Positions 5,534-44,600 of a DNA stretch of 64,000 nt are shown piece after piece. How positions within the stretch are numbered: the stretch's first letter is position 1; each line of letters starts with the position of its first letter. Location: the NCBI GenBank assembly GCA_030265395.1, contig JARFYF010000104.1, positions 35,588,672-35,652,671 of the forward strand. The letters are read 5' to 3'. This DNA is from Rhina ancylostomus. Lineage: Eukaryota. The translations under genes were made by a program, and so were the position numbers. The notes beneath the pieces were generated by a model. It saw only the letters and a list, made by a program, of their open reading frames with translations. It was not told where the DNA came from and ran no database searches.

Positions 5534-5622
5534 CTTTGCCAAGCAATTCCCAATGTATCGTCACTGGCACTGGGGTATAAATGCCTGCCGTTTTGATTCA
5601 TGGTCCAGTCACAAATCCTCAG
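5534..5622 (-). CDS. NFIB: NFIB alternative cassette exon (89 nt, phase 0/2): [29 protein letters not shown]
   Basis: TTGACAG acceptor and AAG|GTAATA donor; in frame after exon ~10 or ~8; nearly identical to the recalled mammalian long-isoform segment [29 protein letters not shown]. Confidence 0.88.
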
Positions 5623-8600
5623 CTGTCAATTGAAACCTATCAGTGAGATTGGGTGTCGAGCAGAACTAGACTCCAAGAATACATGCAAAAAATTCACTTC
5701 CATTAAGAAAGGCATTAGTCTGATTAAGATGCAACACAGATTTCAATCAAGAAATATTAGAAAGTCAACCACATTGGTTCAACATTCCAGACAGACAGAC
5801 AGAGTAAAGGTTAACAAGAGAAAATGTTCACTTAGTTTGCTTTAAGGAACCGTTTCAGTAGCTGGAACTGGCAATTCATTTCTTCCAGTCCAGAAACCCT
5901 TTGTGTGGAGCTGTGAAGTACTGACGTAGGAACCTACACTGATCTTGGATGGCTCTACAGCAGATCCCTCCAGAAATTTTGTTTAGGAGCAATATTTGGG
6001 ATCATTAATATTCTTTGTCTGCCTTTTTCTTTATAATGACACCCAGGTTTAGATTCAACTTTAGTGACGGACCCCTGTACTTCTCCATGAAATATCATGG
6101 GGTAGATGTGCCTCATACACCAAAAACTGATTCCTTACACTGTATATAGAACCCTGATAAACAGTTGAGAATGAAATACACAATCACAGAAAAGAATCTG
6201 ACACAATGTAAACTGTTAATCTTAAAACAAAAAGAAAAATATAACTGAGAAGGTTTTTATATTTGCGTTTACATATTTAAAATTTTACCTTCCATACAAA
6301 CCACACATTTAAATTAGTTTATTATAAATAATATAGATAAAAAGTTCTCTTTAACTTTATAGGATCAAACATAATTACATCTCATTTAATGCATTAGTTA
6401 TTAAATACTTTAATCGGTACTATTGAAGTAACTTATCAATTATGATGAGTGTAATATTAGTAGATAATAAATGATGCTTATTGAATTTTCATGTAAACTA
6501 TATTTGACTTCTTAAAGAAATTTCAAGATTTTAGCTGAGTTTTGATTTTAATTAGATGCAGGCAAGTTTCCTAAGAGGCTCTTTATCTCTATTTCCATCA
6601 ATTAACTGGTTCTTTCCCAATCTCTGCTCAGTGATATAATCCATTTAGAATTCATGTGGTAGAATACAAGATACTTAAGATTAAGTGGGAGCAAAAGGGT
6701 TATTTACTTCCAGATTCTCATGTGTTTAATAATGCCAGGAAGTCTAAGTAAGTCCTGGCGAAATGTTTATACCCATTTCAAAAGAAGTTCATGCTTTGGA
6801 GGGTCCAAGCAGAATTTATGGTTCAGTAAAAAAAATCTTCCACTGATTTTGTATCACTGTGAGTAAAATGATGACTATTGAATCATGATGACAAAGAAAG
6901 TCATTTGGCCATTCAAATCTGTAATGGATCTTTGTACGGTATCTAGTCAGTGCCATTTGGTCACCTTTCAACCTGCATTTTTTTAAAAAAACTTTTAAAT
7001 GTTTCTCCAGTTCCCTTTTGAAAGCCACAGCTGAATCTGAATCCACTGCACTTTCAGGCAGTGCCATCCAGAAGATGGCCAGTCCTTCTATAATATCTGC
7101 TCCAACTTTTCTCACCTGGATGTATTCCCTTTCAGATATTCACACTAAGCACAGCCAGTCTTCTCATTACAGCCTCCTTATTAATTGTCATTGCATTCAG
7201 TATCTTCCCTTTTTACTGAGAGTACAACAGCATCCTTATCTTTAACAAAGATGAATACAGTATTCTCATTGGAGTAAATCATGGTAGATTTGACCTGCTG
7301 TCCAAATTGATCATCCATGGCATCTGCCTGCCCACACTGGCCCGGTCTGGACACCAAACCTGGATGAGCAGAATGCAGTGAGGCCTCACATTCAGGGAGG
7401 CTACAGGCAGCATACATCTGAGGGCCTGCCCCAATAATGCCTTGGAAATCTTTAACAGCAGCCAATGGCAGGAGCGGAGTCTCACCTTCTGTCAAAGTTG
7501 TGAGGCATTTTAAACAGGTTTTATAACACACTGATCTTTAGGGTCTTGCAAAATACTAAAATGTTATACACATTATTATTATTATTCAAACTATTTAAAC
7601 ATTTTAAAGAAATGATAAAAAAACACAAAATAATTAAAGATGTTAAAAATAAACCAAGTAAAAAAAAATCTTTTTCCTTGTAATCTCCAGGTTGCAAAAC
7701 CCATTCGAATCAAAAGGGATTCTGATTCAACACTGGGTTTGAATGTGACACTGTGAAGCTCTAGTATGTTCAGGTTTCACCACTGGATCCCACATGGAAC
7801 TGAAGAACACCCACATAAAGTCAATAGATACTTCCCCGAGTGGCTGCATGCTGGCAGTTGCCAGCCAGGCCCATTGTCTCCATGCATAAATTAACTTTTT
7901 GACCACTAATTAACCCTGTCCTCCAACTTCCCACTCATTTTATATATGTTTGGTTTTCCTTTCATATTGACCATCAGCTTATTCTCAAATCCTCTCTTTG
8001 CCCCTCTTATCTTTCTCTCTTTTCACCTTTAGTCATTTTTTCCCTCATGCTGCATCCACCTTTTTTTTCCTTCATCATTCACTTTATCTCTTTTGTCATT
8101 CAGCGAGCTCTGCTTTGGCTACTCTAGATGACAACCAAACCATTGTTTCTTCAAAGACAGCCTATTGTTCTCTTGCGATTTTACCAATCAATCACCCATA
8201 GCAGGTCTCCTCTCATCACAGTAAAGTTCACTCTCCTCCAGTTCAGAAGTTCTAATCTAGACGGCTCCTTGCTAATTTAAACCTGAACAATGATCAGTGT
8301 TTCCATTATGTTCCCTCTCACACTTAGTCAACATTGCCCAATTCATTCCCCAGAACCAGATCCAACAACATCTCCTTCCTTGTTCGGATTGAAGCAGACT
8401 TCAGAAAATTCTTCCCCTCTCCCACCCCACTCCTTTTCAATTTCAATCTTCTTACTCTAACATTTTCCCAACCAGCACTCCAGTACATGAATCCCACATT
8501 ATCATCACCATAGTACAGTTCTTCCCTCTAGATTTCACCTACTGCCTCCTTGTCCTACGCAATGGACTGTGGAATCTCCAGAATATCTCCCAGTAGAGAA

Positions 8601-20600: not shown

Positions 20601-23600
20601 TGGCTGTCAAGTTGAGAGATCATCAGTACGCCTGCTTAAGTTTACTTTGAAATCACTGCAATGGACAACTTAAGTCATCTGTCCCTTCCATGGAGAAAGG
20701 CTGTTAAATTGATGGAGAAAATTCAACCCTGGAGTTTTTCATGGAAATATCTGACTCTAGAATCAAACCAAATGATGCATGGGATCAGAGAATGGGGAGA
20801 TCATTCAGCCCAGTGAGTCTGTACTGGCTCTTTTGGAAGTGTAATCTCACTCCCCACTCTTTTCCTGTATCCTTGCAGTTGTATTTTCACCAAGCATTTG
20901 CCTGATTTCTTTTCGTTGGTTACGCAACACATGCTGACAGAAGGTCAGTTAATTGTGGAGAAGGGTTTTGATTCATCTTTTAAAAACCTACAGGAATGTT
21001 AGCTGTCTTCTTTCACAAATAATTGTACTCTTAAGTTCTTCTGATGACAACATTTAGCAGCTATGTGTTCCCACCACTTCAGCAGTCAAGACTCCCATAG
21101 CAATTCAACAACACATGGAACACTAACAGTGTGATTAGTAATGCTGTTGTGAACTCTTGTTTATCCTACAATTAATGAAGCAATGGGAGCCATATTAGGA
21201 TTCTCATCACAACCAGAGCCTCATTATGTTTTGGAGAGGGGAGGGGAAGTGGTATTCACTACTGTAAAGGCAAAAATAGGCTAAGTTACCTGTTGGTTTC
21301 TCACCAACTGTTTTATATATGAAAGGCTTAGAGGATCAATGGTGTGCTAATGCTATGAATCTGTAATTGTATATATCTAGACAAAGAGTGACAGGAATTG
21401 CGCCCACCTGCTGCTGGTGTAGAAAGGCTGGGTCCCTTGAGCTGAGTCCCACAAATTGCCGGTTGGCAGGGGGTGTACCTGAACCTGTATAGGCTGGTAA
21501 AGACAAAGAGAAGTTAGAATCAATTCAATAGGCCTTTTGCAAACTGTTATATATAAACCTTTCATTGCATTATTAAAGCAAACTGTTTTATATGGCAAAC
21601 TTCTCAGATATGGAGGCAGAATATATTTTTAAGTTAAAAATAAAATAGAAATGCTTGAAGTATTCAGCAAGTCAGATAGCTCCACAGATATTCCTTGACT
21701 TGCAGAGTACTTCCAGCACTTGTTTTACTTCAGATTTCAAGCATCTGCAGTATTTTGCTTTGGATTTTTAAAAAAAACTCAGCAAAAAATAGCAACTGGT
21801 ACCTATGCCTATCTTAACACTTGGGGTAAAACAGCTTGAGTATTGCTCCTGGCAATACTAACGTAAGAATTCATTCAATGAGACATTTCTTTGTCTGCCT
21901 TTTTAAGAGGAGACATTAATTTTCTCTAATGAGTTAACATCTGCTAAAAGAAATCACATACAGTGGAATGCCATGTGATCAGTTCNNNNNNNNNNNNNNN
22001 NNNNNNNNNNNNNNNNNNNNNNNNNNNNNNNNNNNNNNNNNNNNNNNNNNNNNNNNNNNNNNNNNNNNNNNNNNNNNNNNNNNNNTCAATAATTAGCTTA
22101 ACAAAATGAATCTTGTTTCTTTACAATGTGTTCTGGCTTAATTCTGAAGATCGCCCTTTGCCCTAGATTTCAATGGATATTATCATGTTTTTATCACTGT
22201 CAGATCAAATTAGCAAATTTCAGTGCATTGACAGCTTTTGGTTCTTGGAATACAAGGAGTGGTCCAATCCAACATCTAAAGGTTAAAGTAATTGCCTGAC
22301 TGTTTGAGTTAACTGCTGGAGACATACCATTAGAGTGGAGCAAGGAACATCTCTTCTTTCAGGAAAACCATCTTTCTGAATAAACTGACAGCTGTCATCT
22401 TTTTAAGGATGGAGAGCATAGGGTGTACATAGATAAAATTTTGTGATCTTGGTGAAAAACAGTATGAATCCAACCTTTGAACAGAACCCCATTTCGAAAG
22501 TTATCTCTAGCCAGATGTGTTTAGAGGTGACGTTTGGTAGCAGCTGCACATTCTATTGTACTTTCCAATATTCATTTGATTAATTTCAATAGACTGTATC
22601 TTATAATTGCAGTAGGGCACTCTACTACCACTGAACAGTTCAGCTTTGCTAATTTCTAAGCAATCATCCCATATTATTTGAAAGTTTGCTCTAGTGCCAG
22701 GAGAGCAAAGCACCTGTCAGGAACATCTTCCTTTCACACTTGTAATCTTTGATTAGTTTATGATTTTGGACTTCAGCTGGCTTTTCAGTTTTAATTGGTG
22801 GTTTTACATCAAAGTAATTTTTCAAAAGGTATTGGTGCAAAAAGTGCTGAAGCAAAATAAATGGGTATTCCGAGACTAGGGAGTAATGTTTAACAGAGAT
22901 GACTTAAATACAAATTTTTTTTGTGTAACCGTCTATTCAGATTGTAAGTGTGACCAGAGTTTCTGGTTGTCTACACTTTTAATTTTCTATCTTACTCTGA
23001 TTTTCTTCAATGTACCACACTGTTGAGTAAAGTTCAATGTAAGCTTGAGAAATGGTACAATATCTTTCACCTATGTTTAACCCAATCTCCTAAATACAAC
23101 ATTAAGTTCGACCAATTTAGGTAATGATTCTGCTGTTTCACCTCGACCAGACCTTTCTTCTATTGTTTTGCACATTCTATTACTGCCCCCCCTTAACTTG
23201 TACAATCAACAATTTTATCATTTAATTGTTCCTCCTTCTACCCCATTCTAGGTCTGCCCTTTTCTTCCTCCATCTTTCTCTGCACCTTAAAACATGCTTT
23301 CTCTCTGATCTTTTTCACTTCTGGTGAAGGGTCACTGATCTGGAATGTTACCTCTGTCTCTCTCTAACCTGCTAAGTGATCTCTAGCAGTTTCAGTTTTT
23401 ACCTTACCAAAGCTGTACAATGTACGAATTGTGAAATTTATCCTGCAGTTGGTTTGAATGGAAATGGTAACATTTGAAATAAGCAAAAAAAGTCCCCTCA
23501 GTATATAAAAATAAAATTGAAATCTGGAAGAAAATCATCTTTGAAAATACTGAGACCGAATCTCTTATTGAATTTATTATTGTTTATTTTTGGCACCAAT

Positions 23601-26600
23601 TTAATTATCTTGTCCCTTCCCTTTCTTGCTGGAGCAGAGTCTGTGTCTACTAATTGGCTCCAGGTACCTTGCTAAATAGCTAACATTATTGAAAGGCTCT
23701 GCATTTGAAGTGTTGGCAAATGGTTCAGTCACGGGGTCTGGCTTTATCTAGTCTTCACCCAATACCAAATGTCACAGAATGGCAGCGAGGAGAATGACCC
23801 ATGGCAAATATTAACTCTCCTAACCAGGAACACTGAGGTCCATTGCAAAGCCACAACCCCACTATTGTGTGATCAACTAACTAAACACAGAAGGAGGATT
23901 AAATTGAGGACTTTCATTACTGAGCCAGTACTGTTCAGCTACTCACTATGTAAGCTTGAAAAACTACTGGGGAATTATTGCTGCTCTTACACCATCTTTG
24001 TTGAGGAATGAAGAAAACTTGCTCAAACCACAAGTTCATGGCCATCCACAAATATATCTTTTTTTCATTGATTTTGAATTAGAAATGATTTTATAAGCAT
24101 ACATGTTATAAATCTCACTGCAATACCATAGTAGAACTGTTCCAATAAAGCTCACCAGAAATTTTGGGTTTAGGACAAAAAAATACACACTTACTGCATT
24201 CAGTGTAAGCTCACCTTTAATTCTTGGGCTCACGACAACTACCTGTACTTTATACGTGACCAGACATGGGTTTGAACAGCTGAGAAGCTGCAAAGCCACA
24301 GCAAATCAATTAGTACACAAGTCGCAGCTGTCTAGAGGTTTTCTCAAAAGAAGACATTGTTCTCCTATTTCATTGCTGACAGTCTCCCACGGAACACATT
24401 AGTGAGCCTTTGTTAACTTCATCCAGACAGAGATACAGAACACAGTGTGGCAGTTTAACCACAGTACTTGGGAAAAAGATGATCTATCTCAGCACGTTCC
24501 AGCACATCTGATTTTCATCATTAATACAGTCTGAGACCGCTCTCTTGAAATTTGCTGTGGTCAGTCAAAGCTCATAATACCATTTCAATTGTAGGTTGCA
24601 GCTGTCACAAATCAAATTTTCTGGAATAATTTATTATTACCGTAAAATCAAAAGTTCAAGTATAATTATATCTCTGTCCAATGCTGTTCATTGTTTAGGA
24701 GGAGCTGATAAGTTAGCGGTCAAATAAGCTGGCCTTTACTGAAATTTGTCTTAAATTGATAAGAATTAGTCCTCATCATCCAATTGGCTGTGTAAGATCN
24801 NNNNNNNNNNNNNNNNNNNNNNNNNNNNNNNNNNNNNNNNNNNNAATGCAAATGAGAGAGAAAAGCACCAAAGGCAAAACAAACCCGTTTTACCAAGCAT
24901 ATGTAAGTAGTGAAAAATACTTCTACAGATATTATTTTATTTACCTCATGAATGTGAATTCTATTCCTGCATCAGGATTTTATAACCACAGGTTAACACC
25001 TCATCTAACTTAATGGTACTTACTGGATGATGGGGATGATGATGCCTCACCTTCGGTTGATGTAGTGATGGGTTTAGTGTCTGAAGACATGGCCAGGGTC
25101 ACCGGTCTGGACATGCCATGATGGGGTGAGGGAGCCAGTACTGATGTAAAATGACCAGGCACTTTGCCCACTACTTGACCACTACTATTTGGCTGTGGAA
25201 GGGAACACAAAAAGCAGAAGATCAGTATTCCCTCATTGTGACTTTGCGCAACATAATCTTTATTTTTAAACTGCAAAAGTCAAGCTGGCTAAAAGTCTTA
25301 CAGAACAAGAATTCAATATTGCTGACAAGTGCCTAACATTCTTATTCAGTCACTATTACCTACGATACATGATATGGAAGTTGCCATAACCTGTCCATGC
25401 TAGTGTCCAAGTTCCACTTGAGCCTCTTCCCATCTGTTCTCATTTAAATCTCTCAGTGTAACCCTCCATCCTTTCCTCACTCATACCCTTGTCCAACAAA
25501 CAACTTGCTGGAGGAACTCAGCGGGTCAGGCAGCATCTGTGGGGGGAAAGGGATTGTCGACATTTTGGGTTTCAACCCTGCATCAGGACTCTGTCTCCAT
25601 ACTTATGTCCACACTTCCCCTAAATGAATCTAAGTGATTTGTTTCAATCACTCTCAGTGGGAGCAAGTTCCACATTCTCACCGCCCAGAGTAAAGACTTT
25701 CCTTCAGAAGTCCCTATTGAACTTGATTGCATGCCTTAAAACTTGCTTCCTCATTATCTCCCTTCATGCCTTTGAAAGCTGCCTATAAACCTATCTGTAC
25801 AATTGCCTCCATTCTCCCCGATAAATTGTGACTTTTATTACTTGTAACCTTTTGACCTCACAGTCCTATGAGATGTTCTTCTAGACTCAATATGTATACA
25901 AACTGCTGTGCTGTTGAAATCATGTTATTAACATCTTTCCAAATATACACAGGATCAGACCTTCCAGGAGGAATGGAAGAAAATATCAGTGTTCAGCATT
26001 ACTACAAAGCAAAACTGCTACGATTTCTGCTGTCAGTGCTCCTCTGTTTTCCAACTTGCTCCAGCATAATCAAGTAAAATCAATGTTCTGACAAGTAATT
26101 CAATTATTCACAAACCCTTCCCACTGTAAGATATCTTGAAAATGCAATGTTTTGATGCATTATGTGTAAGGGAGCTTTTAATGATTAATCTTTAAACTAA
26201 GATTAACCTTTAGCAAAATCTTCGGCCCTCAAGTCCAAATTTTATTTCTCTGGTTTGTAACTTCATCAGGCAAATATTTTAAAATATTTTAACACATTTT
26301 AAAATAATACGTTTCTGCTTCTAATTGTTTCTGTGGTATTCTAACCTATATCCTCAGCTTTATGTGTACTCTCCAATCCTTATTATCGCACTCTGTAAAT
26401 GTTTACAATATCGGTTAAAATTGTGCTATTTTGTTTGTTTTTTTATGATTCCTGGAATCATACAAAGATACATTCTACTCCCAATCCATTTTAATGCCTA
26501 ACTCATATGTCTATTAACACTCAACAAAACAATGTTCAAACAGCACTGTTCTCATAACTTCAGGACTAAGGCATCCACCATATATCCTTTGGGATATGAA

Positions 26601-29600: not shown

Positions 29601-32600
29601 ATCAAAGCAATTTGCTGTTAATTTACAAATAATGCCATGTTATAACATCGAACAATGACAAAATGCAACTGCGTCTCAGCACACTAGTAATTCACTGAAG
29701 TGCTCACGCCTATGACTTCTGGGATAATGAAAGAGCAGAAACTTAGTGTTCAAGTGGCAAAGGGGAATTGGAGAGGGACAGTAATCCAGATCAGAAAGAA
29801 AGGGAAAGAATGGAGGGATGAGGAAGGGCAGGGGAAACCAGTAATCAAAAGTGAGAGGGCAATAATCNNNNNNNNNNNNNNNNNNNNNNNNNNNNNNNNN
29901 NNNNNNNNNNNNNNNNNNNNNNNNNNNNNNNNNNNNNNNNNNNNNNNNNNNNNNNNNNNNNNNNNNNNNNNNNNNNNNNNNNNNNNNNNNNNNNNNNNNN
30001 NNNNNNNNNNNNNNNNNNNNNNNNNNNNNNNNNNNNNNNNNNNNNNNNNNNNNNNNNNNNNNNNNNNNNNNNNNNNNNNNNNNNNNNNNNNNNNNNNNNN
30101 NNNNNNNNNNNNNNNNNNNNNNNNNNNNNNNNNNNNNNNNNNNNNNNNNNNNNNNNNNNNNNNNNNNNNNNNNNNNNNNNNNNNNNNNNNNNNNNNNNNN
30201 NNNNNNNNNNNNNNNNNNNNNNNNNNNNNNNNNNNNNNNNNNNNNNNNNNNNNNNNNNNNNNNNNNNNNNNNNNNNNNNNNNNNNNNNNNNNNNNNNNNN
30301 NNNNNNNNNNNNNNNNNNNNNNNNNNNNNNNNNNNNNNNNNNNNNNNNNNNNNNNNNNNNNNNNNNNNNNNNNNNNNNNNNNNNNNNGGAGTGGGGTCAT
30401 GGTCGGTGGGATGTAGGCAGCTCCTTCATAGAGGCATTTCAGGAACAATTAAAGAGGTGGCATCTCACACTGCTCTGAAAGGGAGACAGGCTGGGTACAA
30501 ATAAGAAACTTTCAACCCATGATTAACAAAAACTAACAGCACAAATAAATTCCCAAACTCTGGCAGCCTGCTGTGAGAAGTAGGAAGATCCTTAAACCTT
30601 TCACTGTTCATGCATGTTCAGACAATTAACCTGTGCGTATCAACACACAAAATACTGGAGGAACTCAGTGGGTCAGGCAGCATCCATGGAGGACTGGAGA
30701 GAAAGAGGGGAGATAGCCAGTATAGTAGGGTGCGGGGGAAGGGGTGGAGCAAGAATTGGCAGGTGGATCCAGCTGAGGGGGGGGATAGGCAGATGAGGGA
30801 GTGGAGAGAGTGGGAATGAGGTATGAAGCTGAGAGGTGATAAAGTGACAAAGGGCTGTAGAAGATGGAATTTGATAGGAGAGGACGGTGGACCATGGAAT
30901 AAAGGGAAGAGGAGGGGAACTGGAGGGAGGAATGTGTGGATGATGGGCAGATCAAGATGGCAGGGGAGGAGAAANNNNNNNNNNNNNNNNNNNNNNNNNN
31001 NNNNNNNNNNNNNNNNNNNNNNNNNNNNNNNNNNNNNNNNNNNNNNNNNNNNNNNNNNNNNNNNNNNNNNNNNNGGGGTGCGGGGGCCAGTGGGATAAGG
31101 GGAAAAAGGGGACAGAAGAAAGTGGTTACCAGATGTTAGAGAAATCGATGGTCACGCCGTCAGGTTGGAGACTACCAAACCTGTGTGTATGTCAAGACTT
31201 GAAGGCACACTACCTCACATCCCACCATGAAACCCCACCACCACAGAGAAATTACATGCACCTTAATAAAGGTAAGAAAACAAAAAGGGCCAAGGGTCTA
31301 TCTCGCATGTGATTTTCTGCTTTAAAGTCAGGTTCTAATGATTTAGAGAAATAAACAAGTTATAAGTCATTGGGCAGTACTTCCTACTCAATTATCTTAG
31401 AAAGATAGCCTTTCAATTGTCAAGAATTAACATTTCAGTATTAACTCACCTGGCTTGTTTGTGGATTGGACGGCCCGCAGCCAAGTTGTACGAAGTTCTT
31501 CGCTGTGTCCTGAGGGGTAAGATGCGGTGGGTATCTGATTGTAGGGTGCGAGAAGTAACTACTGGGAGCAGGAGGGAGAATGGAGGAGGCTGAAAAATGT
31601 AGCGGTGATGGAGGAGGTGGGCTTCTTGTTGAGATGACTAGAAACAGAAAAGAAAAAGTTAAAGAAATTTTCTAGAGTGCAAATTTCTTGTATACCACTG
31701 ACCTTATCTGTATATCTCATATTTTCATTTCCTGCAACAGTGAACATTGTTTCTGTGCATAACATGAGCTTAGTAAAGGCTTCTGTATACTGCAAAAAAA
31801 TGATAAAGACTTAAGGAAGTATAACTCAGTACGGAAAATATTCCGACTAAATAAATCCCTAGCATTCAATCAATATTCTATGTACCATAGTGGTTTGCAA
31901 TTGTTTAACAGATTTGTTGTTATGATCATTTAAGCCAGTTAATTCAAAGTGTACTGTTCCCTTTGATGGATGTTGCTGAAGCACACTTACTTGTCCTTTT
32001 TGCATAACTCTTTCAAAGGAAAACTACTCAGATGAGAATAATTCAATTACTATTTTTGAAAAACACAAACACAATTCATGAAGAACTATATGCACATAAT
32101 TCAGAGTGCTGAACTTCAAGATTTTTTCTTGTTAAAATCAAAAACATTAGACTCTTCTACTGTTAGTAAGCATGAATATCGAATCCTTCAGGAAAACAAG
32201 TCATTTTATCTTAAATTTTCCATTAGTTATATTTATTATTGAGTCAATGTGTAGAAAAAGACGATGCAAATCGATACAGATTATATCTGATGTAGCCTCT
32301 TCCTTATTCTGTTTTCTTTCAGCAGACTCATTCTGCATATGTTTCCAAGACTCCAGCAGCAATTTATTCATCAGTTTGTCGAGACCAAAGAGGTAACAAA
32401 TAGCCAGGTTCCCCTCAAGCTTCAATGTGCACTGCACAGCACAAAACACAAATGGACACCTAAACAGCCACGCTCTGAATACTGAGTGCACTCTCCGACT
32501 GTGATTTTGCACTGTGCAACAGTTAAAGTGGTCAAGTGAAATGTTCTTGGTTGAAATGAAATCTCCCCAACCTGTTTAAGAGGAAAATGTAATGTGCATC

Positions 32601-35600
32601 ATCATTGTTGTACTGCAGGAAGTTGTAGCCTGAGGTCCCACAAGCCACAATTGTCATGGTTCTGAGTACTGGCCCTTGATTTGGCCCCTTAGGTGTCTTG
32701 TTGTACAGCACATGGATTCCATGCTGGACTGATTGTATAATGACACTCACCTGAGCCCCATCATGGGCCTAGCATAAGTTCCTGGGTTTCTCTAGCACTA
32801 GTTGCCAGAGTATTGGTCTACCTTTGGCTCCTAGCTGCTTAAGAGTAGTCTACTCTAGAGCAGTCCTGTGTTCTCTATTCCTTTTTGAAGATCCAGTTTG
32901 TGTTGGGATTCCTCTTCAGATCTCNNNNNNNNNNNNNNNNNNNNNNNNNNNNNNNNNNNNNNNNNNNNNNNNNNNNNNNNNNNNNNNNNNNNNNNNNNNN
33001 NNNNNNNNNNNNNNNNNNNNNNNNGTATTTTCCAATTTGTTTGCATTTACTTAATACACAGATAAAGTATGAATTGAATTACCACTGTGTCCTGGGATGC
33101 CAGGGTGATGATGCGGTGGGAAAGTACTCAGTCGTGGTGATGAACCTTGTGGAGATGTGGGGTCACTATATATTGGCTTCTCGGGCTTCTTCATTGTAGG
33201 AGATGACATTTCTACCAAGTCATAGATAGAAATATGAAAACAGGTAAATACTTATATACAGGTGTATTAGACCACTTTAGAAAGGTGCATTGTTTCAGTA
33301 CTATTTTGCCGATACCTCAGGAGAACCCGCTATTACCACTTTTGGGTCAGCTGATGTGAATCACCTGTATCTGTGATGAACCAAAGTCCAAACAAAAAAT
33401 AGCAGAGAAAGATGGTTAATAAAATTCTACCAGGACAATTCTTAAAATGCAAAGACTACTATTTGGAATCCACTTCTCACCCTAACAATCCAGAAACTTT
33501 CATCAGCAAACTAAAAGCAAAAGACATGGTAATGAAATTACTACAACCAATTAAAATAATTTCGCTGCTGCTTTGTCTTTTAACTCAAGAAAGGAAGGAA
33601 TAGTTTGGAGCATTCTGCATGAATACATTGAAGTGCAGTTAATTTAGGGGAATATGTCAGCTAATAAAGTCTCATGAACAACAATAACATTATCAAATCA
33701 TTCCCTTTAACAGTGTTGGTAAGAAATACATATCAATAAGGACACTGGGTGCCCAAACAAGAAAGCAGATAAGAACTTTGCTTGTCACCTCATCCAAAAG
33801 ACTAAGCCCTTGCAGTGCAGCACTCTAACATTGCTACCAGGAAGTTCCATTTTGGACTATATGTTCAACATTGCAGAATGTGAGCACTGGAGACAAGACT
33901 ATGACCGACACCTTATGCCAGTAATCTGGGAACCAGTAGCCTGTGAACAAAAAGCTAAAACTGGTAATACATGGTACATCTGTGGAGAATTTAATTTCAG
34001 GTGGGGAAAAGAAATCAACTGATTTTATTGGCAGACCTATTGGTGAATCACTAATCAAGGAAAGAGTTAACAGAAGAATCCTCTTAAACTCTTGTGATCA
34101 AAAATCCTTGCTTGAAGGTTAGCTATCAGGATGGGTCATAGAAAGCTGTACTTTGTTTAACATAAGACCAGTGCAGATGAAACATATTTGAGGCTTGGTT
34201 TGTTTCAAAGTTCAGGTAGATGAGGAGCATGTTTATGTCATTTTATTATACATCATAAGAAAAGAATCTGTATTTAAGTAAATATGCTTTGACTATGGCA
34301 ATCATTTTGCACACTAACTTGCTGACTGTGAAATTAAGCAGTTTAATGATTCCGATATGGCCTGTCCTCAACAAATTACTTTCAGTTCACTTAATAAAAA
34401 TTTGGAAAAGCATACATGAGGGCAGAAATTTATTTGCACAGGGAACCATTTCTGAAAATAACATTACATGGAGATCCATGCCAGTGTGTCATTGCACTTT
34501 GTTCAATGATTTGTCCATCTAAAGAATGTGATCAACCTATTTTTCATGAAAGCTTATTGTTAGGATGAATAACTTCAGGACTACCAGACAGGGTACTAAT
34601 TGAAGTTGTGCTTGTGACCGTTAAAATGAAATGTCCAATGCCTCAAAGTATTGCAAAAAGTCATTAAGCATGTTGAGGAAGTGGAAGGATGCAGTCACTC
34701 AGGGAATATGCACTCACTTCTCAGAGGAAGCCCTGAGCATTCCTGTAGAAGAGAGGTCCTGGAAGCCAGTCAGGATATAGCATTGGAAAAAGATCATCAT
34801 GGAAGTCAATGCAATGAGCAATCTCCCCTGACCTAGTTCCAGTTCAAGAAGAAATTTAAGAACCTTGCATGTGTAACCAAGGTCAGAGTTACAGAAACAC
34901 ATTCTACCCATGCACATTTACCATTACTTACATAAATACCTTGCATACCCTTTGTTACTCAACATTACATATATATATTGTGATACCTTTAACATACTTC
35001 CCTCTTTTTAAAAGGTAAAGGCTGCAAGCAACAGCCAACTGCAGCAGCACTGTGTAAGGGGACCCTACAATGGTCAGAGTCTTCCTGAGGAGAGGGTGCT
35101 TATGAGTGTGAGCTTTGCTGCAACTGAGAACGTTGTAAGTTCAGAGTTCAGGGATGNNNNNNNNNNATGATGATGGTATGCTCATATCTAACATTCATTC
35201 TCACAGCCCACCCACCTCATCCTCAACTTCTTTTGCCATAGCACGCAGAACCTACTCCAATGCAAATGAATGAATTTACTTGGCCTCAGCCATTAGGAAA
35301 GCAGTGTGTTAAAGTGGTCATACAGGCAAGGCACACAGAAGTCAGGCATGGTTTTGGTCTTATCTGGATTTAAAATTTAGTTGGCATTTTGCTTTAATTG
35401 TGCTCCTTACTTGTGTTTAAGCTGATGTTTAGAGAATGAAGGACAGAGTAATGGGAACATGGAGACCATCACTTTGGGGTTGAGTTTCCCTTAATTCATG
35501 GGAGATGCACCCAACTTTGATGTCAGTATTCATTGATTATTTTATGGCACTGAGGATGTGGAGAAGTCACCTCCCTGACCTGCTGCAGTACTTGTTCTAA

Positions 35601-38600
35601 AGTAACTCCTGCCGTTCTGTTACATCGAGCAGCTCCAATGATGCAAATGAACAGCCTTAGAGAACTTGCAATGTATTTCCACATTACACTTGGAGCGCAC
35701 CTTGCATGTGTAACAAATTTCACAAAATTAATGTCTTGTTCTTTTAAGTAGTACAGGTTGAGGGATATTACAACCAATGGGTCAAAGGTGGTCAGCAGTG
35801 AATTGGGTGCCAAACCTAAGTCCTGAATAAATCCAAGCTTCTTCAACATCTTCAGGGAAGCAAGTAGGTAACATTCTTCAGACCCTATTTCCCTAAGAAG
35901 ATGTATTACTTGCCTCTATGACGCCCAAGTGACATGCCTGGTGCCAAATGACCATTGCATAATGGTTGGTGTCACCAGTTGGTACATCAGGCACAACCAC
36001 ACAGTACAAACAAACAAGTAGCATAACGTGCACATTACTTTGCTCATCACAAGTTGTGAATTGAATTATAGACAAGTGGGAGCATGTAGTCAAAGAAAAT
36101 ATCTGCTGTGTGAATGTATGTCTGGGCTGTGACATCCAGTTAGAACAATGTTTTTGTTAATCTTCCTCTCCTTTGCTTTCATCTCCATCAGATATTGGAT
36201 AACACAAGCACAGGCACTGTATCTGGAGATCACTTAGCACCACTGACTCAGGAAGATTAGCTCAATCATCTTAACGCAGAATTTGATTATAAAAGTAACT
36301 ATGAATTTGTTCCGTTGTATGAAAATTAAGTGCAGCATGTTAAACTTTATCGAGAACAATCTTCACGGTAAAAATATTTGACTACATTCAAGTCATTGTT
36401 TAAAGCTGTAGCCAAGGCACATCACATATGAGAAGAACCAAGTATTATATGTCTGCACATGGTGAAAAGAATATCAAATGGCTTATTTTTAAAAAAAACT
36501 TTTATCCATTAGAAAAGTTATGGTTGAAAAAGTCTAATTGGTTTTTGCCTCAACTACATTCTAACTAAAGGAATTCAATGTGCAGTGAGTTGTTCCATGT
36601 GCAATGTATGAACAGAAAACAATTTCATTGTGCTTGTTTACCTCCTCCTGACTTCTCCTCCATTCCAGCTTTCTATTTCATTTATCGTCATAAACTCATC
36701 TACTTTCCTTTTGGAAGCACTTAAACCATTTTCCACAAACACTTCCTGGGGCAGCAGTTTTCACATAATTACCACTCTCTGAGTCAAGATCATTTGTTCT
36801 TAGTTACCTATTAAACCGATCAACAAGTTTCTTGGAGTCCTAATTTTCCAAAACAAAAATATTCTCTTCGCACACTGCCAAGCCAATCCATTCATAATTT
36901 TAAAGATCTTCATTAGATCCCCTCAAAGTTTTCTATTTTCCAAAAAAAAATTCAAACTCACTCAGTAGTTATGTCCTCTTTGTTCTGGTACCATCAATGC
37001 ATATCTTTTATTAATTTTTTTTAGCATCTCTTTGTCCTGTAGGTGGTGTGGAGATGAGCTACAGGCTGGTCCCAACCCATATTATGTACAATTCTAACAC
37101 TACATAAAATTTAATACTCCAAGAAGTGTACCCTAATTTATTACAATGTTTTGCTTAATTTTAACCTTGCTTAATCTTGACCTCATGCTCTTCTATCCTA
37201 TCCAGTTTACTCAACCAAATCAAACTTTCACATGTTACATTCTCTTAGTTCTGGTACCATCGATGATTCCTTTAATGAATTGCATTATATTTTCTTGTGC
37301 GATCATTCATTAGTCACTGCCCAGTGCAGGTTTTCTGAATGGATGACTGGGATAAGATAAAAAAAAGAGTTCCCACTGCATGCCTCAATAAATGAAGTTT
37401 CATTCATCTTTACAGGATCAATTATAAAAGCAGAAAAGCATCATCATAACTTAAAGCAATTGATAAATTTACAAAACTGATCACAAGTATTCATTTAAAG
37501 GAACAAAAAACCCATTGCTCTCAAAATCCAGTGCATGTTCATATGTGGGAAACATGAGCACATTTAGTTGGAGACACAAGAGATTCTACAGATGCTGGAA
37601 TCTGGAGCAACACTCACAAAATGCTGGAGGAACTCAGCATGTTAGGCAGCATCTATGGACGGAAATAAACAGTCGACATTTCATGTCAAGACCCTTCGTC
37701 AGAACTGGAAGGGAAGAGGGTAGAAGCCAGAACAATCTGCAACAAATTGCAGAAGTCACACATAACATGCTGATCTTTTTTTCGAAAGTGTCACCTGCTT
37801 GAGAAACAAGGCACAGTGGTGTCACTCAACTAGAGGCCTTTCATCATTCAGTCCACCCGTTTTACCAAATAATCTCAGCAGATCAGGACTGTTTGAATGG
37901 TACAACCTGTCCGATGACACCACACCTGAGAGAATCCACCTCCCAGTAGTATAGCAAGGGACTGGCCTTGTTGGAAAGTGGATAGAAGGTGACCAGCTCG
38001 GTGAGCCACTAGTGACTCCACCAACCTGAATACCCCTCAACAAGCAGTTACATGAATAACTTCCTAGATGTGAACTGGGCAATCTGGTACATCATGTTAG
38101 AATGTGGAACTTCTTCCCACAAGTAGAAGGCAGAGATGAATATGTTTTGTCTATTAGATGAAGTAAGGTGGATTCGATGTGTTGTATCAACAGCACGTAA
38201 ATCTGTGGAGGCACAAAGTCCCTTTTAATGTTGCAGTTTCTATGCATTTCCATGTGGTGCACAGCAAGACTCAGTGATTCTAGAGAGTCTTGCTGAAGTG
38301 TACTGTGAGATGTGAAGTGTACGGTGTGGCACAGTGGCCTAGCAGTTAGTGTAACGCTCTTACAGCACCAGCAACCTGGGTTCAATTCCCGTCGCTGTCT
38401 GTAAGGAGTTTGTACATTCTCCCCGTGTNNNNNNNNNNNNNNAGGTGCTCCAGTTTCCTTCCATATTCCAAAGATGTACAGGTTAGGAAGTTGTGGGCGT
38501 GCTATGTTGGCACCGGAACAGTGGCGACACTTGCAGGCTGCCCCCTCCCAGCACATTCTTAGCAATGCAAAAACACTGTGTGTTTCAATGTACATGTGAC

Positions 38601-41600
38601 TAATAAATAAATATCTTATCTTAGATTCCACCCCAGTGCAGGCTCCTTTGTTGTGATGGCTGTGCTGTTACCTCTCAGGAGTGTCTATGCACACAAGTCC
38701 TGGCCGTTTCTAGTGCTCAGCCGCAGACCATTGCTGGCTAGGGATTGGGTCAGTTTGCCAATTTCCCCTATGTATGGGTACAGTAATGGGACCTCAGTCT
38801 TCCCATGACTGTGGTGGGGTTCCAGAGCCTGCTTGGTGTAGGCGTGTAGTTAGTGAGCCATATCTGACACAGCACTAGGAGTGGAAGTGCTGGTGTCCAG
38901 GGAGCGATGGCTTCCTTCTCCTGGTAGCCTTGATGACTGCGCATATCTGGAGTGCAATTTGGCTTAATTCTATTTAAAGATTGCTTTGCCGGTGAACCTA
39001 TCTGCTTGCAATGTTGATGCAATGCAGTGTGATGTCTTATTTTGGGAGCTGTGAGAAGCAAAGAGTAGATTTATTTTGAATAGCGAGGTTGTAATGCATT
39101 GAATGTGAATGATGTGCTCATACTTTGTGGAGGATTGTATTCAGTTGGTGGGAGGGGATAGACAAGCTGTTTGTGGAGTGGCGCTGGGCAGGGGTGGACG
39201 GGTGCAGTCAAACACATGATTTATCTTGGAGTCACCCTGACAGTACTGATCACATCAACAAAAGTATGGATAGGAAAAGTTTAGAGGGATATGGGCCAAG
39301 CATGGGGAAATGGGACTAGCTTAGATGGTCATCTTGGTCAGCATGGATGAGCTGGGCTGGAGGGCTTGTATCCTTGCTGTATTACTCTAATAACCGCATT
39401 AAAAATCAAAGCAAGAGTTAACCTACTATGGAGTGCCAGTGACTTTGTTCATCACCACTTGTACTGCTTTATTTTGGCTCAGACAACTGACATGGTAAAC
39501 TAGTGCAACACCAAATCTCGTGGCACAATGAACTGAGCGTCAGGCATGCTGCACCTCACTAAACTCTGGCTTCCAGTCCTCATCTCTGTACACAAATGAT
39601 GAAGCATACTTACTAGCCAGAGTCCATTATAATTCAATGCTTCCAGCACACTCACTATCAGACATCTCCACTCAGGACATCCAGCCTTTCAAAACCCATT
39701 GACTCATCTTCTTTACTTGATGGCATGAAGAATGGTTAGTGTAAGCTCCTGTCAATCAGCATATCATCTGAAACCAGAACCAGTCAACCAGAATTGAACT
39801 GAACACTTCCAACCTGTACTGTGTCTCAAATGTACACCAATGGGGTCTTTGTTATGGCAACAAATACCCTTCTGGACAATGTCAAACCACGTACCACGAA
39901 TTTCACTCCAGCCCACTGACAACCTGGTGGTCTTTAAGCTCTTCATACTATATTGACATTGCCTTATGTTGGTGAAAGTAATATGCTGAAAACCTACAGC
40001 ATAACTCATTAAGTTTTCCTCCACGTCTGCACTGAGTATTTCTAAGCTCTAGGAAGGTAAGGCATTGTGTAAGATTGATCACCATTGCAGAGAAAGGCCT
40101 CAAACATTAACAGCTTTAACACAGACATGGGCCAGTGAGATAAACAAGATGCACTCACTGTAATGTAACTGCCACAACAAAGTTCATTCGACTTTGAAAT
40201 CTGTGTTGATGAAAGGCGCACGTCAATTAATATTACCTTTCCTTTTGTTCAAGTACCATTGAATGGGTAGAAAGGGACAAGACACACTGATTTAGACATG
40301 AAAACAGAAAGCTTACTTTTTGATATGGCCATTGACAATGATAATCATTGGATAAATAAAAAGAGAATGTACAAAATTACTGCATTAACATTTTGCACTC
40401 TACCTTATAAAAGCCATTTTCATTACCACTGTAGCTTAGGAGCATGGAAGCAAGGAGAGGTGTGGACCATGAAGCCCTTCAAACCTGCCCTACATTCAAA
40501 TGATCATGGCCAATCTCTATCTTAATACCACATTCCTGCTTTCTCTTCACATATCCCTTTGATGCCTTTTGTGTGCAGAAATCCATCTACCTCCTTAAAT
40601 ATTTCCAGTGACTTGGCCTTCAGTGGTAGAGAATTCCACAGGTTCACCACCATCTGGGTAAAGATATTTCTCATCTCAGTTCTAAATATTTTATCCCATA
40701 TCCCGAGTCTTTCTAGACCACCCCCCTCCCCCAACCAGGTAAACTTGTTCCGCACATCCAGTCTGTTGACCCCTTTGAATTTATTATCTCTTTTTTATAT
40801 TTCCGAGAAATCCCCTTTGAAACAAGTGAATTCAGGCTTAGATTATTAAAACTCTCCTTATGCAACAATTCCACCATCCCACAAATCTGTCTGACAGACA
40901 CTCACTGTCTAGCAAGTATATCCTCTCTTAGGTAAGGAGACTAAAACTATACACATTACTCCAGGTGTGGTCTCACCATGCCATGTATAACTGTAGCAAG
41001 ACATCTTTGTTCTTGCAGTCCCAGATCAAGACAATAGCTTGATTTCATAGGGACAGAATATTTAATAAAAAAAAGCAGCTGACATTGTAAGATAATCAAA
41101 AGTTAAGCATTCTACAATGATAGTTTTAATTCTTCATCTTCATAGATTCATACAACACACAAATAGGCCCTTCAGCCCAACTCATCCATACCAATCAAGA
41201 TGCCCATCTAAACTAATCCCATTTGCCTGTGGTTGGCCTATATCCTTCTCAACTTTCTCCATCTATGTATCTGTCCAAATGTTTTTTAAATGTTATAATT
41301 GCTTCTGCTTCTACCACCTCCTCTGGCAGTTTATTCCATATACCCACCACCCTGTGTGTGAAAAACTTGCCCCTCAAATCCCCTTTAAATATTTTCCTTC
41401 TCACCTTAGATTCCCCTACCCTGGGAAAAAGACTATGACTATCTACGCTATCCATACCGCTATCATGGTCCCAGTTAGTGATACTTTGATGAAAGTGACA
41501 AAGAAAAAAATTGAAGATCTTCTGCAGAGCCAAGAGAGTAGATGTCACCAGTTCAGTTGCTGCGTAGGTCTTGCTGATCAAAACGTGGTCAGCACCAACG

Positions 41601-44600
41601 CCACTGCTTTGAAATCTCTGCGTATTATGGNNNNNNNNNTGGGAGGGGCAGGAAGGCAGGCAGGATTGAACTTTGTTGGAAAATGAATGCTGTACAGTTG
41701 CTGGGTAACAAAAGAAAAATCAGGCTTGGCCACAATGCTCTGCCCAGGCGTTGTGGGCCTCCCCTTCAGTATCACTCTTCTGGAATTAATATAAAGGTGT
41801 CACATGACTCTGACAGTTGGCATTTACACTGACAAATGCTGGTGCTGCAAAACTGAATGGAAATTGAACAGAACCATCAGATGAGATTAACAGAGAAAAT
41901 GATTCAAGTATTTTATGTTCAGGCACTTCCAAAGTGCTTGATTAGACTTCTCCTTTGTTATTACTCCCAGATAGTCTACTCCATTTAATATACATTTCCT
42001 GCACAGATTTATTACTCTGTTCTCCTAACTTTCCTTTTAAGCTAGAGTTTCTGCTAATTACAGTTATTCTTCTTACTCACACATTGCTAACTATTTACAA
42101 ATGCATTTCATTTTTGTGTGTTCTGGCCATGCTTATTACAGCCACCAATTTATCAAACTGCTGAATTACTGCAAACTACTTTGGCAAAGGCAGTGGTGAC
42201 TCACTGACAAACATCTTTTGTGTAAACTTAATAACGGGTGGGGAATATTAGTTTGTCCGCTAGTAATTATTATTCAGGTCCAGCAATTCTGCTTTAAGTC
42301 ACAAAGGACCGGTATTTAAAACTTGGCTGTACAACATACAAGTGCTGTTCTTGGGTTGTCAAAGCTTCTTTGTGTTAAAGCAATTTTTCTGAAGTAGAAA
42401 TAATATATTGTTCACCAGATTTTGGCATTAGTCATAGTTAACATCATTTAAAATATTTTTTTAAAGTCACCATTATTAATAAATTGCCTTACATAGCATT
42501 GATTCATGTGTTCCACTCTATTAGTGAACAAGTAGTCTCCGAATCTGTTAGTGAGTTGAGGCAGTGCATCGTTTAAGGGAGTATTTTCAGCAGGATGGTG
42601 TGTTTACAGGCAGAAATTTAAACAGATTGATTCCCGAGCATTAATGCAACTTGGTGCTTGACAGCCACCCCTCTGTGAGTGTGAGTATTTTTATGTTAGG
42701 ACACAGTGGGGTCTTCAGACAGAAGCTTTCAGTTGAGGATCCAGTTGCTAAGCAGTTTGTAAGTAACACTGTGAGGAAAGGTTATTTCAGNNNNNNNNNN
42801 NNNNNNNNNNNNNNNNNNNNNNNNNNNNNNNNNNNNNNNNNTTAAGTAAAAATAAACTAATGCCAATCACAGATTGCCACATATGATGTCAAACTCAATC
42901 ATCTCCACATAAGATGATAATGTCCTTTTAATATTTTTAGAACCAAATTTCATCTTGACTAACTGCTATTAAACTCAGCTTCAAAATCAACAGGGACAGT
43001 ACTAAAACAGCATAACTACATCCTAAAAACAGATCATGTTCGTCTTCCAGTCAAAACAATGGGATTGAAGTCATAGCTAGCAAAATAAATAAGCTTCACT
43101 AGGGGGAATAAAGTCAGAAGTTAAACTGGTGTACTTGATGGAACCAAGATTCAATCTATCATACTCCATAACCAATCTTAATGACTCCTTAAACTTTTGC
43201 CCTTTCCATCTTGAAGATTACTTTAATTAGATGCCTCCATTTAGTGAAATAAACCCAGTAAGGTCAAAGAAATCAATATCTTGCAAGGAGTCATCACTTA
43301 GAGAGAGACCTTCACATTGCACTCAATCTCATTTAACACTCTATGCACTGAGCACCTACATCAGTTGCTGAAATATAACCAACAGTTCTGTTCTCTCCTA
43401 ATTCTAAATATTTCTGCTTTNNNNNNNNNNNNNNNNNNNNNNNNNNNNNNNNNNNNNNNNNNNNNNNNNNNNNNNNNNNNNNNNNNNNNNNNNNNNNNNN
43501 NNNNNNNNNNNNNNNNNNNNTCTGCTTTGATGCTCCTGTATTATCTCATGAAATCATTTTTATTGATAATTGCAGAACAAAATAGGCCAATTTTAATACA
43601 ATTATAATAGACCACAAGGTAATTATTATTATAGAGTAATATTGAAACACAAAATTAAGGACGCATGGGGTTGAAGTGACATATTTGTATGTATAAAGGA
43701 TTGGTTACGAGACAAGAATCAGTGCAAAGGTAAATGTATGGTTTTCAGGTTGGCAGACTGTTACTAGTGTGATGTCACAGAGTCATATATAAGCTATTCA
43801 TAATATATACTAATGGCTTTGATAAAAGAAAGTGTTATGTATCCAGATTTGCTGATGATTTAAAGCTAGATGGGAAAATGGACTGTGAGGAGGATGCAAA
43901 GTGTCTGCAAATGGATGCAAAAAGATTAAGCCTATGGGCAAAGAGATGGCAGATGGACAAGGTGGACACCCTGCCAATGCACTGGTACAATACGACATTG
44001 TCCAATTTAATAGGAATGACAGAGACTGAAGTTTTTAAATAATAGTGTATAGAACAATTCTGGTGTGCTGGTTCATGGGAAGCAGAGGGTGATCATGCAG
44101 GTACAGCCAGCAATTAGGAAGGTGCATAGTTTATTGACCTTTATTTCACTGGTTGGATTGGAAAAGCATTGAAGAGTTGTTGAGATAAAAAGACAAAATG
44201 CTGGAAACACTCAGACTAATGTCTCTGATCTGAAATGTTGGCTCTAGTTCTCTTCCACAGATGCAGACTGACCAGCTGAGTGTTCCCAGCATTTTCTGCT
44301 TCTGTTTCAAATTACCAACATCTGCAGGTTTTTTTTTGTATTTCAACAATTACTGAGATTGTACAAAGCTTCAGTGAGACTTCATGTGGAGTATTGTGTG
44401 CAGTTTTGGTCTCCATGTCTAAAGATCAATTTGCTTGAGTTACTGTCAGTGCAACATGGAAGTACTAAATTGTTTTCTGGGATGAGGGAGGTTGTTCAAT
44501 GAGGAGAGATTATGTGGGACTAGCCATTTTCACTGAGGCTAAGAGAAATGAAATGTGATCTCAAGCAGGCAAACAAGATTTTGACAAACAAAATCAGTTC

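What the first reader, a model, noticed from the sequence alone, without database searches (positions are those of the whole stretch)
5534..5622. Deeply conserved frame-switching cassette exon of NFIB
Seen: an 89-nt exon with AG/GT boundaries, 16 kb downstream of exon ~10, encoding [29 protein letters not shown]. Recalled: a long mammalian NFIB isoform has [29 protein letters not shown] and then reads the terminal exon in a shifted frame (SPGTWA... instead of SWYLG*). That is 26/29 identity, higher than the neighbouring constitutive exons show. Inference: since the origin of jawed vertebrates this exon has acted as a switch that removes the conserved SWYLG C-terminal motif. The selection could act on the peptide, on splicing signals, or both.
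Basis: partly seen in the sequence, partly recalled or inferred. Interest (0 to 1): 0.8.

Follow-up and report, generated by a model that had tools for sequence, protein, structure and literature searches.

The report
Known NFIB exon swaps protein tail
An 89-base optional exon in the NFIB gene of a cartilaginous fish shifts the last exon into a second reading frame, replacing a 5-residue end with a 72-residue tail that is kept from sharks to humans and likely tunes the protein's partners; the exon is already annotated, so mainly its function is open.

Summary
Window 5622-5534 (minus strand) is an 89-nt AG/GT exon encoding the stated peptide, 26/29 identical to curated human NFIB isoform 9 (NP_001356391.1). 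The last exon lies 34 kb further on, outside the window. It reads SWYLG* when the exon is skipped and an open 43-codon frame when it is included. Both forms are annotated in sharks and rays, ray-finned fish and tetrapods. The exon is the 'NFIB exon 11' of MYB-NFIB tumour fusions, and a 2026 preprint already lists the NFI family among jawed-vertebrate dual-coding genes. Added here: (1) the shifted frame is under protein-level purifying selection beyond the SWYLG stop (21 of 28 differences at third positions against one distant vertebrate; 6 of 7 synonymous among three coded relatives); (2) ray-finned fish lost the SWYLG stop through a change silent in the shifted frame; (3) the three paralogues in this genome show no such exon. 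So the main event looks like gaining a selected tail, more than losing SWYLG. Not tested: junction reads and synonymous or flank conservation of the cassette itself, tissue pattern, function. Real and ancient, but known.

The parts
5534..5622 (-). 89-nt frame-shifting cassette exon of NFIB (human 'exon 11' of 12); phase 0 in, phase 2 out; encodes 29 residues of the long tail
5623..5645 (-). Weak acceptor region of the cassette: 10 of 20 pyrimidines, against 13-18 of 20 for the eight other NFIB acceptors examined; AG-free zone only 12 nt
5682..5687 (-). One Rbfox-type hexamer 65 nt upstream of the cassette (0.08 expected per 300 nt; noticed after the fact, conservation untested)
   Evidence: motif identity recalled
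21408..21493 (-). Exon 10 (86 nt, ends in phase 0); upstream partner of the cassette or of the last exon
25024..25192 (-). Exon 9, with two donors (ends 25051 or 25024; 142 or 169 nt; both end in phase 1)
   Evidence: both forms present in annotated proteins
31450..31637 (-). Exon 8 (ends in phase 0); second upstream partner of the cassette in amniote annotations such as human isoform 9
33083..58738 (-). NFIB exons 4-7 (first bases at 58738, 52774, 47920, 33211)

Best explanation
Including this 89-nt exon after exon 8 or 10 shifts NFIB's last exon by two bases, so the protein ends in a 72-residue tail instead of SWYLG; the last-exon part of that tail is under protein-level purifying selection, and the tail likely acts as a binding or stability module that changes NFIB's transcription-regulating end. 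Both products stop in the last exon and would escape nonsense-mediated decay, so this is an isoform switch and not an off-switch (shown by arithmetic). The exon likely arose in NFIB alone, after the four NFI genes separated and before cartilaginous and bony fish split (inferred). Regulated, tissue-dependent inclusion is inferred from the weak acceptor and from both forms being annotated; it was not measured.
For: Frame arithmetic: 8-C-T and 8-9-10-C-T end in ...AETTN, while 8-T and 8-9-10-T end in SWYLG. 105 of the 120 listed hits (of 229) to the shifted frame carry the cassette peptide before it; the other 15 are ORF calls or gene models without it. Skip forms are annotated in cartilaginous fish too: 2 of 29 rows (Mobula, Mustelus) end SWYLG, 26 end in the tail, 1 ends otherwise. 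Selection, codons 8-43 (past the SWYLG stop) against L043: 28 differences, 21/6/1 at codon positions 3/1/2, pS 0.79, pN 0.10, Fisher p=3.5e-11; the other two frames show no such pattern, and the UTR after the stop barely aligns. Three coded relatives: 6 of 7 variant places are synonymous (binomial p 0.0007-0.003), about 0.25 per synonymous site and 0.012 per non-synonymous site, against 13 of 60 UTR places. In 3 of 4 runs laid, deep contigs (112-165) begin exactly at the last exon's acceptor, with intron depth 0 in two runs and one minor contig at 3.8 in the third, as expected for spliced RNA that branches there (weak). The published 'NFIB exon 11' primer encodes YPSTSE inside the human cassette, and MYB exon15-NFIB exon11 transcripts were Sanger-confirmed. 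Teleost cassettes drift to 55% identity and 26-28 residues yet keep the frame and the C, W, GI, WQ positions.
Against: The selection test covers the 36 last-exon codons, not the cassette; no orthologous DNA or reads for the cassette were examined. It rests on one distant locus (L043) and three coded runs whose RNA status is a guess, and differences near contig ends were not listed. The teleost multiple-of-three length changes are partly circular, because only proteins annotated with the tail were collected. Most non-human records are predicted (XP_) models. The cassette's excess identity is not significant (p=0.11). No partner, motif, Pfam family or fold was found for the tail, so the 'binding or stability module' step is inference. 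The preprint's main text names NFIA, not NFIB, as validated through a frame-changing exon.
Confidence: 0.75

Rival explanations
1. The cassette is conserved mainly as a DNA or RNA element (enhancer or splicing-control block); its peptide is a passenger, and only the last-exon part matters as protein.
For: In sharks and tetrapods the cassette peptide is nearly frozen (29/29 to chimaera, 26-27/29 to mammals, bird, turtle and frog). It has a weak acceptor and an upstream Rbfox-type hexamer. DNA of the cassette could not be compared here.
Against: Teleost copies diverge to 16/29 with frame-keeping deletions while specific residues stay. The exon is the annotated route into a frame that is selected as protein.
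Confidence: 0.15
2. One reading: the point of the switch is to remove a functional C-terminal SWYLG motif, and the tail only has to be harmless.
For: SWYLG* ends NFIB in sharks and tetrapods and two of three paralogues here; the third ends SWFL*. Inclusion does remove it.
Against: A merely harmless tail would not show pN 0.10 at saturated pS. All 7 ray-finned skip forms seen read through SWYLG for a further 27-28 residues, so a free SWYLG end is dispensable for NFIB in that lineage. A search for 'SWYLG' found 3 papers; the one passage read gives it no function.
Confidence: 0.07
3. The exon is partly a decay switch: when it follows exon 9 directly (exon 10 skipped), or an 8-10 join, it brings a premature stop.
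For: 8-9s-C-T places a stop 75 nt, and 8-10-C-T 85 nt, upstream of the last junction.
Against: No evidence that these joins are used. The annotated inclusion forms are full-length, and the downstream frame is selected as protein.
Confidence: 0.03

Closest known systems
Human NFIB isoforms 9, 16 and 22 (NP_001356391.1, NP_001356398.1, NP_001356404.1) and RefSeq predicted NFIB isoforms of sharks, rays, chimaera, bony fish and tetrapods
   Same: Same exon, same peptide (26/29 to human; identical to Mobula, Hemitrygon and Amblyraja), same shifted last-exon frame with the stop at the same codon in sharks and tetrapods.
   Different: Nothing in kind; this is the orthologue in another cartilaginous fish.
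'NFIB exon 11' of MYB-NFIB fusions in adenoid cystic carcinoma (PMC6626627, passages read; PMC5323230 and PMC6721700, passages read)
   Same: The paper's exon 11 primer encodes YPSTSE in the cassette and its exon 12 primer encodes ILPANV in the shifted last-exon frame. The exon15-exon11 fusion was the predominant chimeric form, 30-43% of MYB transcript, in three tumours.
   Different: The passages read treat NFIB's contribution as about 5 residues and likely very limited; they do not discuss conservation of the long tail. Exon numbering differs between papers.
Ancient dual-coding last exons of the NFI family (Tress et al., bioRxiv 10.64898/2026.05.28.727796; abstract, passages and sections 8, 20, 21, 22, 25 read; supplements not seen)
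   Same: Lists NFIA, NFIB, NFIC and NFIX among families with dual-coding regions preserved across jawed vertebrates (90 such regions), and validates NFIA through a frame-changing exon.
   Different: The paper infers a pre-duplication origin for the family's dual coding. The frame studied here (+2, reached by the 89-nt exon) has no counterpart in the three paralogues of this genome, whereas the +1 frame is long in the C63 paralogue and closes after 8 codons in this NFIB. Which NFIB frame the paper scored cannot be told from the main text.

Membership tests
NFIB orthologue (Nuclear Factor I family) | Exons encode the CTF/NF-I modulation region and match NFIB best | tested here: met
   tblastn maps exons 4-10 and the cassette; the named close hits are NFIB; PF00859 on the near-identical P0004; three other NFI loci exist in the genome
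Frame-shifting cassette exon | AG/GT ends and length not a multiple of three | tested here: met
   89 nt
Frame-shifting cassette exon | Both included and skipped transcripts exist in this lineage | tested here: inconclusive
   Both are annotated in cartilaginous fish (26 tail, 2 SWYLG, 1 other of 29 rows) and contigs break at the last acceptor, but no junction read over the cassette was seen; human use rests on curated RefSeq and PMC6626627
Dual-coding region (Tress et al. criteria) | Same exon read in two frames after alternative splicing | tested here: met
Dual-coding region (Tress et al. criteria) | Both frames preserved with no lost stop codons across jawed vertebrates | tested here: not met
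   The shifted frame is preserved, but the SWYLG stop is lost in 7 of 7 ray-finned skip forms seen, against 8 shark, ray and tetrapod forms that keep it (criterion). It is met within sharks and tetrapods.
Dual-coding region (Tress et al. criteria) | Purifying selection on the alternative frame beyond the overlap | tested here: met
Dual-coding region (Tress et al. criteria) | Peptide evidence for both frames | not testable with these tools
   No proteomics access; the preprint's supplement was not seen
Poison (NMD) exon | Inclusion creates a stop more than 50 nt upstream of the last junction | tested here: not met
   The annotated inclusion forms stop in the last exon; only the unobserved 9-C and 8-10-C joins would qualify
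Ultraconserved exon | Near-identical DNA over the exon and its flanks across distant vertebrates | not tested
   No orthologous cassette DNA was obtained; teleost peptide divergence argues against it for that lineage

The most novel reading that the evidence does not exclude
The 'alternative' 72-residue tail is an NFIB-specific functional module older than 400 million years (age recalled) that outranks SWYLG: ray-finned fish gave up the SWYLG stop by a change silent in the tail frame and so turned most of the last exon into a two-frame region. MYB-NFIB fusions that include exon 11 would then carry a working NFIB module rather than five inert residues, and would differ in activity from exon-12-only fusions.
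Probability: 0.25. Interest if true: 0.6.

Novelty: already known. Interest (0 to 1): 0.3.

Why it matters
NFI knockouts all remove exon 2 (PMC13637464, passage read), so C-terminal isoform function is open, and altered NFIX C-termini have distinct effects in mice (PMC10241085, passages read). A tail under strong selection from sharks to humans is a good target for an isoform-specific test, and it is predicted to ride on a common MYB-NFIB fusion form. The exon and the class of event are not new.

Tried and rejected
AlphaFold2 on a 41-sequence alignment gave mean pLDDT 32 and failed even on the DNA-binding domain, so it says nothing about the tail. Pfam has no family for the 43-residue frame. 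Run search: no holder is on record as RNA; 18 of 24 rows are guessed RNA and hold 0.14-0.30 of the words, and these shares are not used as evidence. No reads were laid on the cassette, so its junctions and DNA variation stay open. One of four runs laid on the last exon gave nothing (X14). The search of 50%-identity representatives gave 23 hits: 22 NFIB-like at 71% or more and one repetitive false hit, with no distant homologue; this is weak evidence on jawless fish or invertebrates. The metagenome scan gave 1 locus from 508 candidates. The paralogue search found no cassette homologue (best E 0.9), but 9-20% of those stretches are N. A first splice calculation had exon 9 off by one base and was redone. 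In one search the exon 4 query ran 3 residues into the intron; one search uses 24. Literature: eight searches turned up no paper, in the listings or passages seen, on the tissue pattern, function or shark conservation of this exon; PMC1942171 and PMC99863 are not held, and older NFI splice papers in subscription journals are likely missed. Earlier scan notes: nothing on this gene. Rejected: artefact or chance ORF; poison exon as the main role.

Full report
Observation. It is single copy. tblastn with skate and ray NFIB places exons 4-10 and this exon in order in the window. The acceptor is the weakest of nine NFIB acceptors examined (10 of 20 pyrimidines against 13-18). The last exon is outside the window, 33,986 nt further on.

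Frame logic. Exons 8 and 10 end in phase 0. Joined straight to the last exon they give SWYLG*. With the cassette between them, the last exon is read two bases shifted and gives 43 open codons, so the protein ends in a 72-residue tail. Both stops lie in the last exon. Exon 9 ends in phase 1: joined to the last exon it opens a third frame that closes after 8 codons here, and joined to the cassette it would put a stop 75 nt before the last junction.

Orthologues. The shifted frame found 229 proteins, of which 120 were listed. 105 of the 120 carry the cassette peptide in front of it: 95 at 29 residues, 5 at 26, 3 at 28, 1 at 30 and 1 at 45; 15 ORF calls or models lack it. Named sources span chimaera, sharks, rays, bichir, sturgeon, paddlefish, gar, bowfin, teleosts, frogs, reptiles, birds and mammals, with coelacanth and platypus added. 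Human NP_001356391.1 is a curated record with 26/29 in the cassette and 35/43 in the tail. Skip forms are annotated in cartilaginous fish as well (2 of 29 rows). These rows are cluster representatives of mostly predicted models, so the ratio is no measure of expression. The cassette's higher identity than its neighbours (26/29 vs 215/283) is not significant (p=0.11) and reverses in carp (16/29).

Selection on the peptide. Codons 8-43 of the shifted frame lie past the SWYLG stop, so they would be 3' UTR if the tail were not translated. Against one distant vertebrate locus (L043) they differ at 28 bases: 21 at third, 6 at first and 1 at second positions; pS 0.79, pN 0.10, Fisher p=3.5e-11. The other two frames show no synonymous excess, and the next 400 nt of UTR give only one weak 42-nt local match. 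Contigs of three coded runs laid on the same exon show 7 variant places, 6 of them synonymous third positions (binomial p 0.0007-0.003), against 13 of 60 places in the UTR just after the stop; differences near contig ends were not listed. In those three runs deep contigs start exactly at the acceptor and the intron has depth 0 in two runs and one minor contig at 3.8 in the third, which fits spliced RNA branching at that point but names no partner exon; the fourth run gave nothing. The same test could not be made on the cassette, for which no orthologous DNA or reads were examined.

SWYLG is the less stable end. All 7 ray-finned skip forms seen (sturgeon, two gars, four teleosts) read through SWYLG into a further 27-28 residues, while 8 shark, ray and tetrapod forms stop there. 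The only codon pair compatible with both fish frames is GCG/AGC, where this genome has GCT/AGT. The stop was therefore lost by a change silent in the tail frame; this is inferred from protein pairs, not read from fish DNA. It argues that the tail frame, not a free SWYLG end, carried the constraint in that lineage.

Paralogues. Three other NFI loci (C57, C63, C65) have last exons ending SWYLG*, SWYLG* and SWFL*. Their +2 frames close after 7, 19 and 34 codons and resemble the tail at most in the first five residues, and no cassette homologue was found (best E 0.9; 9-20% N). The C63 gene has a 25-codon +1 frame that I recall as the known second NFIA end; the labels NFIA, NFIC and NFIX for these loci are recalled. 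A search of 1.84 billion representatives found no distant relative of the tail. The simplest reading is an NFIB-specific gain before the split of cartilaginous and bony fish (inferred).

What is known. Tress et al. 2026 (bioRxiv 10.64898/2026.05.28.727796; abstract, passages and sections 8, 20, 21, 22, 25 read; supplements not seen and likely to bear on NFIB) list the NFI family among ancient dual-coding genes, validate NFIA through a frame-changing exon, and do not name NFIB among the triple-coding genes in the main text. In PMC6626627 (passages) the 'NFIB exon 11' primer encodes YPSTSE within the human cassette, and MYB exon15-NFIB exon11 transcripts were Sanger-confirmed and predominant in three tumours. 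Reviews (PMC6721700 and PMC5323230, passages) stress the five-residue SWYLG contribution. If MYB exon 15 ends in phase 0, as a SWYLG product would imply, the exon 11 form carries the whole 72-residue tail (inferred). PMC9103462, 10.1101/684472, PMC13637464 and PMC10241085 (passages only) added context but nothing on this exon's function. Eight searches showed no study of its tissue pattern or role.

Mechanism and verdict. Shown: the exon, the frame switch, its conservation across jawed vertebrates, and purifying selection on the last-exon part of the tail. Inferred: regulated inclusion, and a role for the tail as a binding or stability module in the regulatory C-terminus; it is richer in aromatic and aliphatic residues than the rest of that region and keeps invariant C, W, GI, WQ and SPGTWASL positions across 37 distinct sequences. 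Folding was uninformative. The feature is real and ancient but already annotated, and belongs to a described class. Interest 0.3, carried by the selection evidence, the fish stop loss and the untested link to MYB-NFIB fusions.

Noticed in passing
proteins P0186, P0188, P0205, P0217, P0226, P0241, P0242 (orthologous to L004:1547-1450): Ray-finned fish NFIB skip isoforms have lost the stop after SWYLG and read a further 27-28 residues overlapping the tail frame; the change must be silent in the tail frame.
   Followed up: partly
window 31450 to 21493, then L004:1547: Skipping exon 9 (an 8-10 join) would read exon 10 in another frame that is open here and also enter the tail frame without the cassette; use is unknown.
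   Followed up: no
L004:1547-1525 (-); L043:403 on: The +1 frame of the NFIB last exon closes after 8 codons here but runs 28 codons in L043, and a turtle model (P0140) uses it, so the exon may be read in three frames in some tetrapods.
   Followed up: partly
G000:C63:32982390 (-): The NFIA-like paralogue keeps a 25-codon +1 frame in its last exon, recalled as the known second NFIA C-terminus.
   Followed up: partly
window 25051 and 25024 (-): Exon 9 has two donors 27 nt apart; both forms occur in annotated shark and tetrapod proteins.
   Followed up: partly
window about 29110-29440: A tandem repeat array (period about 25 nt) lies in the intron after exon 8, near an assembly gap at 29868-30387.
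   Followed up: no
proteins P0192, P0100, P0221: Some models end or diverge right after the cassette (manatee read-through into the intron, a rabbit extra exon, a catfish different tail); they may be annotation noise.
   Followed up: no
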